Source: the human T2T-CHM13v2.0 reference genome, Homo sapiens
Assembly: GCF_009914755.1 (NCBI RefSeq)
Contig: NC_060940.1
Reading direction: 5' to 3' (one strand)
DNA: 64,000 nt
Below are positions 46,701 through 52,353 of the stretch, piece by piece. Every line of letters starts with the position of its first letter. Within the stretch, counting starts at the first letter, position 1. The notes beneath the pieces are model-generated. The model was not told the origin of the DNA. It ran no database searches and saw nothing but the letters and a program-made list of their open reading frames with translations. A program made the position numbers and the translations under genes.

Positions 46701-49700
46701 TTCCGCCCGATCACACAGAGTATGCCCAAACTCTCTCAGGCCTCTGGCAGCTGAAAACCACTGCTTTAAATCCCTTTACCATTTACTATGACATAAGGTT
46801 ATTGTGAACAGGAAATATTCTATTGATGCTACAAATGGAAAGCCAATGCCTTTACCATAAATAGAAAAACAACCCTAAGAAACAAGCAAAACAAAAACAA
46901 AACAGGGGCTGGGTGTGGTGGCTCACGCCTGTAATCCCAGCACTTTGGGAGGCCGAGGTGGGCGGATCACAAGGTCAGGAGTTCCAGACCAGCCTGGCCA
47001 ATATGGTGAAACCCTGTCTCTAATAAAATATAAAAATTAGCCGGGTGTGGTGGTGGGCGCCTGTAGTCCCACCTACTTGGGAGGCTGAGGCAGGAGAATA
47101 GTTTGAACCCGGGAGGCAGAGTCTGCAGTGAGCCGAGATTGCACCACTGCACTCCAGCCTAGGCGACAGAGCGAGACTCTGTCTCAAAAACAGCAACAAC
47201 TACAAACAAACAAAAAACAGGGTTAACAAAACTATGGAATTCAATTCTTTTTATATGCTGCAGCCATGTTCCGGCCCTAGATTTGGCTGGGCATGGTGGC
47301 TCACACCTGTAATCCCAGCACTCTGGGAGGCTGAGGTAGGTGGATCACAAGGTTAGGAGTTCGAGACCAGCCTGACCAACATGGTGAAACCCTGTCTCTA
47401 CTAAAAATACAAAAATTAGCCAGGCATGGTGGCACACACCTGTAATCCCAGCTACTCAGGAGGCTGAGGCAGGACAATCCCTTGGACCCGGGAGGCGGAG
47501 GTTGCAGTGAGCCGAGATCGTGCCATTGCACTCCAGCCTGGGTGACAGAATGGAATGAGACTCTGTCTCAAAAAAAAAAAAAGAAGCCCTAGATTTCGGT
47601 TGTGTTGGTTATAAAAGGAGAGACCAAGTAAGTGGGGGTTGAAGTCAGATTAGAGCAAAAGTGAATGGCAGAGAGTACTATAATGTCCATGAAGGGTTGC
47701 TAGAGTCACCGTGATCATAGCCCAAGCAGAGACAGGGAAAGGAAGATGTGAGCAGAGTTTGGGGTCTCGAACAATGGAGGTTATTCGTGCAGCCCAGGAA
47801 AGGCTCCCCAAAGCCAGGATCAACCTCCCTTGCAGGCGGTCCCTCATGGAGGCATGACCAGGCACCTTAGATTTGAGACCAGCTATGTTGCTGCTGACCA
47901 GCTGTGTGACCCTGGGCTGGTTTCCTTCCATACAATGGGAGTGCCAATGGCTGCATGCATGCAAAGACCGTCTGAGGATAGGAGGAAGCAATCTGTTGAG
48001 CACCCGTGTACCTGAGTGTCATCACCTCCCAAGGGCATCTTTCGTTCCAGAGCTGGCACCTTGGAAGGCCCTTGGTCACTGAAGGCAGTGATGATGGTAA
48101 CAGCAGTAAATCATCATTTACGGCTGATGAGGGAAGGCCAGAGGGTAGGGCTCCTAGGTCCTGGATAAGAATGAGGGTCTGGGCACTCCTGGGGACAGCT
48201 GAGTGGTAGGACTCCTGGGTCCCCAGGGTGCAGGTCCATCTTCAGTGGCATTGGGCCTAGGCTGGGATGCTGAGTTATCCACTGGAGCATCAGCAGTACA
48301 GGCAGGCACAGAGGCAGTGGATCCATCGGAGGTGGCAGGTGTAGGATCATCTGGTGAGCAAGTAGAGTCACCAAGTCTGGCTGACCACTACCCCCACTAC
48401 CCCCACTATCCCCACAGACGATGCCCTGTCCCTTGCCTCATGCTCCGGCAGGGTACAGGCTCACACCTGGGGCCTCATGGAGCATCTCTCTAAGACCTCT
48501 GTGTCCTGGTCATTGAATGGGCACTTGAGTCACCCAGGGCCATTGGAACAAAGAGGAAGAATCAGGCCCCATGATGTTTTGGGAGAGTGTTTAGCACAGG
48601 AAAATGCACAGAATACATGCACGACACAGGGGCACTGTCAGTGTGGGAGCAATAGTTTACAACCTCCAGCCCTAATCTGAGCACTCTCACCTGTGCAATC
48701 TGAAAGGAACAGGAGACTTGCAGGAAAGACAGTGCCTGGATTTAACTTAAAGGAACTAAAATGTTGGAATTTTTACTCTTGATATCCTTCCAAATCAACT
48801 CTCTCAATGTTCCCATCCTCAAAACTATCATATGGGGTAACTGAGGCAGTCAGAGATTTACTGACTCAATGTCACTCAATTGATTCTGAGTTCACTGCTG
48901 ATTACATTCGACCAAACTGCTTTTTCTGAAGTCTACTCCGTTTAATCATGCTGGTGATGATTTTGTGCAGCTCTGGGACAAACTCCACCTGGCTGAAGAT
49001 AAAGCAAATCTGCGGTGACTTAGTCCTCCTGTCATTTCCCATCAGTTCCCCACTCTCTTCCTCTGCCCCTCCACAGTCTCCCATGCAGGCTGACACCATA
49101 TGACGGCCTTAATGGAGCCCACCAAGTATTTCAGGTTCTCTCCTGGGCCACTTGAAAGTGGATGTACCCATGGGATTTGCTTTGACCCAGGAGATGTGAG
49201 TGGAAGTGAAGCGTGTCACCTCGAGGCAAAAGAGTTGGGAGCCATTGAGACTGGCCACTCTCTCCTTCATCTCTTGGAACAACTGACAGCTCCTATATGG
49301 AGGCTGCTCCTTTATTCTCGTGGCAGGATGAGGGCATGTGGGGCACAGGGCACAGGAGAGCCATGGAGGATGTGCAGCATGGGCAGGAAAAGAGCCTTCA
49401 GTGGTGTACATTTTGTACATTTCCATCGTTTGGGGCTGTTTCTTACCTACAGTGATACCTAGCCCATCCTAGCAGGCATGCACCATCTACCCCACACTCT
49501 GTGATGCAGACTAGCCTGCCGTCAGAACATGAACTGGTGGTCAGACACACATAGGTTTCAGTTCCAGCTCTGCCTCTTATTGACTGTAACCTCAGGCTTA
49601 ACTTTCAGTCTCTGAGCCTCAGTTTCAACTCTGTAAAATGAGGTGGCTATACCATCTCAGGTTGCAGAGAGAATTAAATGAAATATAAGTGCATGTAGAG

Positions 49701-52270: not shown

Positions 52271-52353
52271 ATCCCCACAGATGGGGTTCAGGCTGCCGGA
52301 CACAGCTGGGTGATGCCAGGGCAGTGGTCACCTGTGCCAGCCCTGTGAGGTAG
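52271..52353 (-). pseudogene. Degenerate ACSM1-like upstream exon relic (YLTGLAQVTTALA/HPAV/SGSLNPICGD)
   Basis: CAG acceptor 52356-52354; aligns to recalled [33 protein letters not shown] with 2-nt and 15-nt deletions; donor reads GCGAGG. Confidence 0.65.

What the first reader, a model, noticed from the sequence alone, without database searches (positions are those of the whole stretch)
48902..52353. Three-exon ACSM1 relic in order; its terminal exon is still spliceable and could divert NPIPB transcripts into a 68-aa peptide
Seen on the minus strand: a decayed exon (52353-52271), the NPIPB start exon (51331-51212) and an open terminal exon (48988-48902) with an intact CAG acceptor in phase 0. 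Recalled: these match the last three coding exons of ACSM1 in order. Inference: the start exon has two in-frame acceptors, the ancestral one 2.2 kb away (MVKL...YLRK+[28 protein letters not shown], 68 aa) and NPIP exon 2 9.6 kb away, so the relic may act as a splice trap that limits NPIPB output. The adenylation lysine motif PKTITGK has become HKIITSM, so any product would be non-catalytic. The ACSM origin of the start exon is, as I recall, already reported; the two flanking relic exons and the trap idea are what I would check.
Basis: partly seen in the sequence, partly recalled or inferred. Interest (0 to 1): 0.8.

Follow-up and report, generated by a model that had tools for sequence, protein, structure and literature searches.

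The report
Dead ACSM1 gene tail inside NPIPB7
The last three coding exons of an ACSM1-like enzyme gene do lie fossilised, in order, inside this NPIP gene copy; the middle one is the already published NPIPB start exon, the last one shows no sign of acting as a splice trap, and the whole fossil seems to have arrived with the founding duplication that made the NPIP repeat.

Summary
Observation confirmed. On the minus strand, 52353-52271, 51331-51212 and 48988-48902 are positional homologues of three consecutive coding exons (11-13) of the gene at chr16:20.554-20.557 Mb that I take to be ACSM1. Intron sequence aligns as well (52816-48466). Exon 11 has lost 17 nt and its GT donor. At exon 12, CAG|GTG became CAA|ATG, which makes the MVKL start. 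Exon 13 keeps its acceptor, phase 0, 28 codons and TAA, and PKTITGK has become HKIITSM.

The ACSM1 origin of the MVKL exon is published (Cell Genomics 2025). I did not find the flanking relic exons described.

The splice-trap idea is unsupported:
- Both ACSM1 poly(A) hexamers are mutated, and 0 of 13 copies has a canonical signal within 1 kb.
- New AGs lie at -6 and -23 of the acceptor.
- The exon varies like its flanks (5/87 against 172/3012 sites).
- None of the 55 published Iso-Seq isoforms contains the junction peptide.
- The three listed NPIPB7 isoforms start with MRLR, not MVKL.
No read-level RNA data were available.

New lead: the relic is the upstream end of a block of about 20 kb, collinear with ACSM1's 3' end and downstream flank and with old paralogues on chr10. 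It is therefore probably a founding part of LCR16a, not an independent insertion.

The parts
48466..52816 (-). Block homologous to the gene taken as ACSM1, from the end of intron 10 to the start of the 3' flank; interrupted by two later Alu insertions (about 50900-50610 and 50230-49950)
   Evidence: blastn to chr16:20553991-20557406 in six collinear pieces at 72-81% identity; genome searches
52271..52353 (-). Relic of ACSM1 exon 11: 83 nt instead of 100, frame broken, acceptor CAG kept, donor GT changed to GC
   Evidence: Alignment; a 16-nt deletion is shared with chr10:96.05 and chr11:3.43 copies, plus 1 nt more in LCR16a
51621..51718 (-). 98-nt 5'UTR exon made from ACSM1 intron-11 relic; used in the published isoform A2_2
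   Evidence: cDNA of A2_2 in Table S5 of PMC12790995; AG and GT flanks in the window
51212..51369 (-). MVKL exon as spliced: new acceptor ctaatag| at 51370, 5'UTR 51369-51332, coding part 51331-51212 (relic of ACSM1 exon 12), donor GTGAGT
   Evidence: The ancestral CAG|GTG is CAA|ATG in 15 of 15 LCR16a copies; 8 of 8 non-LCR16a sequences keep CAG|GTG
51285..51356 (-). Out-of-frame upstream ORF (ATG at 51356, 23 codons, TGA at 51287-51285) that overlaps the MVKL ATG inside the 5'UTR part of the exon
   Evidence: ORF 51285..51380; sequence
48902..48988 (-). Relic of ACSM1 exon 13: 28 open codons plus TAA, acceptor CAG in phase 0
   Evidence: open with the acceptor AG kept in 13 of 13 LCR16a copies that have it
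48993..48994 (-). Competing AG 4 nt upstream of the relic acceptor (ttcAG|ccAG|G). If used it shifts the frame to [17 protein letters not shown] second new AG lies at 49010-49011
   Evidence: ACSM1 has ctcaaccag and ctgtgg at these places
48857..48862 (-). AGTAAA variant hexamer; a second one at 48777-48772. These are the only poly(A)-like hexamers within 1 kb of the stop
48656..48746 (-). Places of the two ACSM1 poly(A) hexamers, both mutated: ATTAAA to GTTAAA (48746-48741) and AATAAA to TGTAAA (48661-48656)
   Evidence: Alignment of the 3' flank
48683..48691 (-). Donor-like CAG|GTGAGA, last exon base 48691; would close a 298-nt internal exon from 48988. Also present in the ACSM1 3' flank, so ancestral
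47585..49951 (-). Stretch missing from the NPIPA2-type copy at chr16:14.7476 Mb through an Alu-Alu junction; it removes relic exon 13 there
   Evidence: blastn; exon C not found at chr16:14.75 or 15.39
44643..45714 (-). Homologue of the ACSM1 downstream flank (chr16:20551262-20552271, 71%); holds the MRLR start (45098-45033) of NPIPB7
41387..41569 (-). NPIP exon 2 (VINS...). 132-nt paralogues lie downstream of ACSM1 (inverted), on chr10:80.387, chr10:81.112 and chr11:3.387

Best explanation
Window 52816-48466 (minus strand) is a dead copy of the 3' end of an ACSM1-type acyl-CoA synthetase gene. It runs from the end of intron 10 through exon 11, intron 11, exon 12, intron 12 and exon 13 to the start of the 3' flank.

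It was most likely not inserted on its own. It is the upstream end of a block of about 20 kb (52816 to about 32929) that is collinear with the ACSM1 3' end plus the sequence downstream of ACSM1. That downstream sequence carries look-alikes of the NPIP signal-peptide exon, exon 3 and later exons, and an inverted look-alike of exon 2. On this reading LCR16a descends from a duplication of the ACSM1 tail region, and the ACSM1 tail came along as the neighbour gene's end (inferred from paralogy within one genome).

Later, two point changes turned the exon-12 acceptor and first codon CAG|GTG into CAA|ATG. This killed the old acceptor and created the MVKL start. A new acceptor 38 nt upstream and transcription starts inside the intron-10 and intron-11 relics were recruited (seen in published cDNAs).

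Exons 11 and 13 are neutral fossils. Exon 13 still has an AG acceptor in frame, but it has lost the poly(A) signals that made it a terminal exon. It is not seen in the published isoforms I could read. At most it is a rare cryptic exon, not a regulator of NPIPB output.
For: Relic identity:
- Exon-by-exon and intron homology to chr16:20553991-20557406.
- With two ACSM2-type loci (one identical over the exon to solved ACSM2A) as outgroup, ACSM1 and all relics form one clade (support 100/100). LCR16a groups with chr10:96.05 and chr11:3.43 (93/92).

Founding block:
- chr16:20552271-20551262 matches window 45714-44643 at 71% over 1129 nt.
- chr16:20549246-059 matches NPIP exon 3 at 82%.
- chr16:20547853-367 matches window 33425-32929 at 81%.
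- All three are on the ACSM1 strand and in order.
- chr10:80.380-80.396 and chr10:81.103-81.119 Mb carry relic exons 12 and 13, the 48.1-46.2 kb stretch, exon 2, exons 3-4 and the 33-kb exons in the same order and orientation as the window.
- chr10:80.39 aligns contiguously to the ACSM1 flank at 78% over 2112 nt.
- These copies differ from LCR16a by 13-25%, while LCR16a copies differ from each other by 6% or less. The relic therefore predates the LCR16a spread.

Exaptation:
- The A2_2, B3_1, B3_2, B5_2 and B6_1 cDNAs in Table S5 of PMC12790995.

Neutral fossil:
- Variable sites among 13 copies are 5/87 in exon 13 against 89/1500 and 83/1512 in the flanks.
- Four of the five changes alter the residue.
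- There is no canonical poly(A) hexamer in 13 of 13 copies.
- There are no hits for the junction peptide in Table S5 or in paper texts.
Against: - I had no RNA-seq reads, 3'-end data or ribosome data. The published table lists only the 55 commonest isoforms, with ORFs of 155 aa or more and cDNA cells cut at 400 characters, so a short rare isoform would be missed.
- By a crude count the relic acceptor's pyrimidine tract (13/17) is no worse than that of the acceptor actually used at exon 2 (12/17).
- The founding-block reading has loose ends. At the ACSM1 locus the exon-2 look-alike is inverted and 14 kb away. About 13 LCR16a copies (NPIPA1-type, NPIPB2, chr16:80.2-80.4 Mb) lack the relic (against 8). 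No other species could be examined.
- That chr16:20.554-20.557 Mb is ACSM1 rests on the published assignment, on its place in the ACSM cluster and on my recall of the ACSM1 C-terminus, not on an annotation I could read.
Confidence: 0.72

Rival explanations
1. The relic terminal exon is a working splice trap: the MVKL-exon donor at 51212 is often joined to 48988, giving a short mRNA and a 68-aa non-catalytic peptide, and this limits full-length NPIPB output.
For: - The acceptor AG, phase 0 and open frame are kept in 13 of 13 copies.
- The acceptor is reached 2.2 kb after the donor, against 9.6 kb for exon 2.
- Its pyrimidine tract is comparable to that of exon 2.
- Two AGTAAA hexamers lie 40 and 125 nt after the stop.
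Against: - Both ancestral canonical poly(A) hexamers are mutated, and none occurs within 1 kb in 13 of 13 copies.
- New AGs at -6 and -23 lie in the zone that working acceptors keep free; the -6 one would shift the frame.
- Conservation is no higher than in the flanks.
- The junction peptide is absent from the 55 listed isoforms, whereas MVKLSIVL occurs 12 times in the table, and every one of those isoforms I read continues into exon 2.
- The exon is deleted in the NPIPA2-type copy I sequenced, whose listed MVKL isoform is otherwise the same.
- The 3 B7 isoforms listed do not use the MVKL exon at all.
Confidence: 0.08
2. The published reading. [quoted passage not shown]
For: - This is stated in PMC12790995 (passages seen).
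- Many LCR16a copies, including the NPIPA1 type held to be ancestral, lack the relic.
Against: - Homology to the ACSM1 locus does not stop at the relic but goes on through the downstream flank.
- Much older paralogues on chr10 already have the relic and NPIP-like exons side by side, in the same order and similar spacing.
- A 16-nt exon-11 deletion is shared with chr10:96.05 and chr11:3.43. The copy was therefore already dead before LCR16a diversified.
Confidence: 0.15
3. The flanking 'relic exons' are chance resemblances.
For: Exon A alone gives no blastn hit to ACSM1. Exon C alone gives no PDB or Pfam hit.
Against: - Both sit at the expected place between aligned intron sequence, with the ancestral exon boundaries.
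- Exon C against ACSM1 exon 13 gives E=8e-10 in a pairwise BLASTP.
- The DNA match of the exon C piece to the ACSM1 locus is E=8.6e-37 genome-wide.
Confidence: 0.01

Closest known systems
MVKL alternative start exon of NPIPB (and NPIPA2/A3), reported as derived from exon 12 of ACSM1 (Cell Genomics 2025, PMC12790995; passages and Table S5 seen)
   Same: It is the same 40-codon exon with the same ACSM1 parentage. My alignments agree: 33/40 residues to the ACSM1 exon and an ACSM1 clade with 100/100 support.
   Different: [quoted passage not shown] Here exons 11 and 13, introns 10-12 and about 15 kb of ACSM1-flank homology are shown as well. The start codon is traced to CAG|GTG changing to CAA|ATG. 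Figure S3 is in a PDF I could not read, so it may show more than the text does.
Partial-gene relics carried in segmental duplications and exapted as new first exons or fusions (for example the PKD1-NPIP fusion transcripts described in the same paper)
   Same: A truncated neighbour gene is duplicated together with the core and supplies promoter, 5'UTR or coding sequence to the resident gene.
   Different: Only one of the three relic exons is used. Its use needed loss of the old acceptor and gain of an ATG. The enzyme domain is cut in half and the catalytic lysine motif lies in the unused exon.
Intronic polyadenylation and terminal-exon traps, or poison exons (general knowledge)
   Same: An in-frame acceptor inside a long intron is followed by a stop codon.
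   Different: The defining poly(A) signal is degraded, no transcript evidence was found, and there is no conservation above background. It looks like such a trap but did not pass the tests I could run.

Membership tests
Pseudogene relic of the ACSM1 3' end | Homologous exons in the parental order and orientation, with parental exon boundaries and phases | tested here: met
   Exons 11, 12 and 13 align at 52353-52271, 51331-51212 and 48988-48902 with the same boundaries
Pseudogene relic of the ACSM1 3' end | Intron and flank homology, showing a genomic (not processed) copy | tested here: met
   Window 52730-52381, 51719-51165 and 49476-48686 align to ACSM1 introns and flank at 74-81%
Pseudogene relic of the ACSM1 3' end | Closer to ACSM1 than to other ACSM genes | tested here: met
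   Tree with two ACSM2-type loci as outgroup gives an ACSM1 clade at 100/100. Only exon 12 of the ACSM2 loci aligns by DNA. ACSM3, 4, 5 and 6 were too distant for the DNA search and were not placed in the tree
Pseudogene relic of the ACSM1 3' end | Disabling lesions | tested here: met
   Exon 11 has lost 17 nt and its donor is GC. The exon 12 acceptor AG is now AA. Upstream exons 1-10 are absent from the block
Functional AMP-binding C-terminal domain (Pfam PF13193) | Score over the Pfam cut-off | tested here: not met
   0 families for the 5 translated pieces at E<=10. A genome-wide PF13193 scan lists ACSM1 exons 11 and 12 but nothing in the window
Functional AMP-binding C-terminal domain (Pfam PF13193) | Lysine motif PKTxxGK near the C-terminus (its catalytic role is recalled, not tested) | tested here: not met
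   HKIITSM in 13 of 13 LCR16a copies; ACSM1 has PKTITGK and chr10:96.05 has PKTVTGK
Alternative terminal exon / splice trap | Usable 3' splice site | tested here: inconclusive
   AG and 13/17 pyrimidines are present, but there are extra AGs at -6 and -23 that ACSM1 lacks. No calibrated splice-site model was available
Alternative terminal exon / splice trap | Poly(A) signal downstream of the stop | tested here: not met
   No AATAAA or ATTAAA within 1 kb in 13 of 13 copies; only AGTAAA variants. The two ACSM1 hexamers are mutated
Alternative terminal exon / splice trap | Junction seen in transcripts | tested here: not met
   0 occurrences of the junction or exon peptide in Table S5 (55 isoforms) of PMC12790995. 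No RefSeq exon there (hub table). 0 papers with the peptide. Raw reads are not testable here
Alternative terminal exon / splice trap | Conservation above neutral background | tested here: not met
   5/87 variable sites against 89/1500 and 83/1512 in the flanks
NPIPB MVKL start exon | ATG-MVKL reading, GT donor, in frame with exon 2 | tested here: met
NPIPB MVKL start exon | Used at this paralogue (NPIPB7) | tested here: not met
   B7_1, B7_2 and B7_3 all start with MRLR. The RefSeq coding sequence starts at 45098 (hub table)

The most novel reading that the evidence does not exclude
The NPIP/LCR16a core was born from the sequence just downstream of ACSM1 at 16p12.3. One old duplication carried the ACSM1 tail (exons 11-13) together with proto-NPIP exons (signal-peptide exon, exon 2, exon 3 and later exons). 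Descendants of it survive on chr10 (three loci), chr11 and chr22, and NPIP-like pieces on chr7 and chrX may belong to the same family. The ACSM1 tail was thus a founding passenger that later supplied promoter, 5'UTR and start codon to NPIPB. If so, the progenitor of one of the fastest-evolving ape gene families can be read directly in the ACSM1 flank of other mammals.
Probability: 0.6. Interest if true: 0.6.

Novelty: new member of a known kind. Interest (0 to 1): 0.42.

Why it matters
NPIP is a fast-evolving, positively selected ape gene family. It sits in the duplicon held to drive chromosome-16 segmental duplications, and the passages I read place its origin no further back than the 16p13.1 'ancestral locus'.

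Suppose the ACSM1 tail relic is a founding part of that duplicon, and the ACSM1 downstream flank still carries look-alikes of the NPIP exons. The origin of the gene then becomes testable by comparing ACSM1 flanks across mammals. The published 'independent duplication of exon 12' would also need correcting.

The splice-trap idea would have mattered as a built-in brake on NPIPB dosage. The sequence evidence argues against it. It remains cheap to settle with existing long-read data.

Tried and rejected
- PDB and Pfam searches with the short relic peptides. Only the MVKL exon hit (ACSM2A); exon C and the exon A frames gave nothing. The DNA and pairwise comparisons were needed instead.
- I first suspected that chr10:96.05 Mb, the best non-LCR16a match at 83-89%, was the true parent gene (perhaps ACSM6). 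I rejected this: it shares the exon-11 deletion and has its own 3-nt and 8-nt deletions in exon 13, and its homology to the window runs far beyond the ACSM part. It is a sister relic, not a parent. Pfam scans of the genome gave no ACSM exons near it (only 14 of 97 candidates were scored).
- The first tree used badly extracted flanks for chr10 loci with insertions. I replaced it with the 221-column tree.
- A calibrated splice-site score was not possible because no model was on hand. Only pyrimidine and AG counts were made.
I therefore did not fetch the NPIPA1-type copies, most of chr16:20.540-20.550 Mb or the lower chr10 loci. Their structure is known only from search hits.
- The paper on TE-driven transcripts and the SVA/lcr16a paper held nothing on the relic.
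Full report
**What is in the sequence.**

Read on the minus strand, the region holds three pieces that match three consecutive coding exons of the gene at T2T chr16:20.554-20.557 Mb (locus L062). The stop-to-stop frames of that gene read ...[33 protein letters not shown], then [40 protein letters not shown], then [28 protein letters not shown].

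I take this gene to be ACSM1 for three reasons:
- The published assignment of the MVKL exon to ACSM1 exon 12.
- Its place in the ACSM cluster. Two ACSM2-type loci lie 80-140 kb away, and over this exon the one at chr16:20.414 Mb is identical to solved ACSM2A.
- My recall of the ACSM1 C-terminus. No annotation of that locus was available to me.

**The three exons.**

Exon 12 relic:
- 51331-51212 is 33/40 identical to the ACSM1 exon (E=5e-23).
- It hits solved ACSM2A residues 498-536 at E=2e-11.

Exon 13 relic:
- 48988-48902 is 16/28 identical without gaps (E=8e-10), and the stop is at the same codon.
- PKTITGK has become HKIITSM.

Exon 11 relic:
- 52353-52271 lies exactly between the aligned end of intron 10 and the start of intron 11.
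- It is 83 nt instead of 100, so the frame is broken, and in the window the donor is GC.

Introns:
- Introns align too, which rules out chance and a processed copy. Six collinear pieces run from 52816 to 48466 at 72-81%.
- Two Alu elements have been added to intron 12.

**What is already known.**

The Cell Genomics 2025 paper on NPIP (PMC12790995; I saw passages, the supplement list, and parts 1 and 4 of Table S5) makes two relevant statements:
- B6, B7, B8, B9, B10, B14 and B15 use another start, MRLR.

I found no mention of relic exons 11 and 13:
- NPIP+ACSM: 21 papers held both terms, 19 were listed, and 2 were relevant.
- LCR16a+ACSM1: only the versions of the same paper.
- LCR16a+'acyl-CoA synthetase': the same paper plus Cantsilieris 2020, where ACSM2A and ACSM5 appear only as a flanking duplicon.
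- Figure S3 is in a PDF that I could not read.

**How the start exon was made.**

- In 15 of 15 LCR16a copies the ancestral CAG|GTG at the head of exon 12 reads CAA|ATG.
- All 8 non-LCR16a sequences keep CAG|GTG. These are ACSM1, the two ACSM2-type loci, chr10:96.05, chr10:80.39, chr10:81.10, chr11:3.43 and chr22:17.72.
- The same two changes therefore removed the old acceptor and made the start codon.

Published cDNAs show how the exon is reached:
- A2_2 splices a 5'UTR exon to 51718-51621, then to a new acceptor at 51369, then from 51212 to exon 2.
- B3_1 and B5_2 begin near 52660 and 52590 and run unspliced through relic exon 11.
- B3_2 begins near 51972.
- B6_1 begins at 51370.

The relic thus supplies transcription starts, 5'UTR and start codon. 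At this paralogue, however, B7_1, B7_2 and B7_3 all start MRLR, as does the RefSeq model.

**The splice-trap idea.**

In its favour:
- The acceptor AG, phase 0 and the open frame are kept in 13 of 13 copies that have the exon.
- The pyrimidine count is 13/17, against 12/17 for the acceptor of exon 2.

Against it:
- ACSM1's two canonical poly(A) hexamers, ATTAAA 156 nt and AATAAA 233 nt after the stop, are GTTAAA (48746-48741) and TGTAAA (48661-48656) here.
- None of the 13 copies has AATAAA or ATTAAA within 1 kb. Only AGTAAA variants remain.
- The acceptor has gained AGs at -6 and -23 that ACSM1 lacks. Use of the -6 AG would give 40 aa plus [16 protein letters not shown], not the 68-aa product.
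- Among the 13 copies the exon has 5/87 variable sites, against 89/1500 and 83/1512 in its flanks. Four of the five changes alter the residue.
- The NPIPA2-type copy at chr16:14.75 Mb has lost 49951-47585, exon included, through an Alu-Alu junction. The exon was also not found at chr16:15.39 Mb (against 10, 11). The listed A2 MVKL isoform still joins exon 2.
- In Table S5 (55 isoforms, ORFs 155-1217 aa) the exon or junction peptide occurs 0 times, while MVKLSIVL occurs 12 times.
- No paper text holds the peptide.

The table would miss a short, rare isoform, and I had no reads, so rare cryptic use is not excluded. A brake on NPIPB output is not supported.

**Where the relic came from.**

The best non-LCR16a matches of all three pieces are not ACSM1 (79-81%). 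They are chr10:96.05 Mb (83-89%) and chr11:3.43 Mb (86-87%). chr22:17.72 and chr10:80.39 and 81.10 Mb also match.

- chr10:96.05 and chr11 share a 16-nt deletion in exon 11 with LCR16a, so they are sister relics, not parents.
- In a tree rooted by the two ACSM2-type loci, ACSM1 and all relics form one clade (100/100). LCR16a groups with chr10:96.05 and chr11 (93/92).

Homology to these loci and to ACSM1 goes beyond the ACSM part. On the ACSM1 strand, downstream of exon 13, lie:
- chr16:20552271-20551262, which matches window 45714-44643 (71% over 1129 nt). This stretch includes the MRLR/MRVR start-exon region.
- chr16:20549246-059, which matches NPIP exon 3 (82%).
- chr16:20547853-367, which matches window 33425-32929 (81%).
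- A 132-nt look-alike of exon 2, inverted, at chr16:20540220-520.

The two chr10 loci at 80.38-80.396 and 81.10-81.119 Mb carry these parts in the window's order and orientation:
- relic exons 12 and 13;
- the 48.1-46.2 kb stretch;
- exon 2;
- exons 3-4;
- the 33-kb exons.

In addition, chr10:80.39 aligns to the ACSM1 flank contiguously (78% over 2112 nt).

These paralogues differ from LCR16a by 13-25%, and LCR16a copies differ from each other by 6% or less. The simplest reading is that the relic and the NPIP exons were already neighbours before LCR16a spread. On that reading the relic is a founding passenger from the ACSM1 locus, later lost from NPIPA1-type copies. Those copies hold 46050-46880 but not 53420-53980 or the relic.

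This is inferred from one genome. The inverted exon-2 look-alike at the ACSM1 locus and the relic-less copies are loose ends.

**Verdict.**

- The ACSM1 origin of the middle exon is known.
- The two flanking relic exons are real and, as far as I could see, undescribed, but they are neutral fossils.
- The trap is unsupported by every test I could run.
- The more interesting result is that the relic marks the ACSM1 flank as the probable birthplace of the LCR16a/NPIP core.

Noticed in passing
window 55931-56017, 54136-54196, 46508: The three upstream junctions of the RefSeq NPIPB7 model on T2T lack GT-AG (CCTCCC|gggttc ... cctcct|GGGTTC; TGCCAC|taggca ... tcttga|AATGCA). The first joins two Alu elements at the same Alu position. 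This looks like an alignment artefact or a structural difference between this copy and the mRNA's source, so the 5'UTR of the model is doubtful here.
   Followed up: partly
window 41468-41519 within exon 2 (41387-41569): Exon 2 of this paralogue group is 183 nt. The old paralogues are 132 nt. The extra 51 nt read like Alu sequence (many 84-94% Alu-type hits genome-wide) and are translated in frame (…[17 protein letters not shown]…).
   Followed up: partly
window 51356-51285 (minus): An out-of-frame ATG 25 nt upstream of the MVKL ATG opens a 23-codon ORF that overlaps the MVKL start. It lies inside every spliced MVKL 5'UTR and could lower MVKL initiation.
   Followed up: no
window 51226-51224 (codon 36 of the MVKL exon): This copy alone reads AAG (K, CPCKYLRK). 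The other 14 LCR16a copies read GAG (E). K is the ancestral residue in ACSM1 and in the chr10 and chr22 relics.
   Followed up: no
chrX:50372579-50376549 and chr7:65596472-65599952 (T2T): Two further old paralogues (72-81%) of the NPIP exon 3-4 and 33-kb exon regions, collinear over about 3.5 kb. No ACSM relic piece or exon-2 look-alike hit them in the searches made.
   Followed up: no
chr16:28923837-28924294 (T2T): One LCR16a copy starts its homology to the window at 46507, the base after the RefSeq exon start 46508. This may explain the odd RefSeq junction noted above.
   Followed up: no
window 52660-51972 (minus), from Table S5 of PMC12790995: The published NPIPB3 and NPIPB5 cDNAs start inside the ACSM1 intron-10 and intron-11 relics and run unspliced through relic exon 11. 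The dead gene's introns therefore serve as promoter and first exon.
   Followed up: partly
L066 1649 / L062 2272-2271 / window 45714: The homology of chr10:80.39 to the ACSM1 flank ends at the very base where the homology of LCR16a to that flank resumes. The 48.1-46.2 kb stretch shared by chr10 and LCR16a is absent from the ACSM1 locus at that point, through either an insertion in the copies or a deletion at ACSM1.
   Followed up: partly
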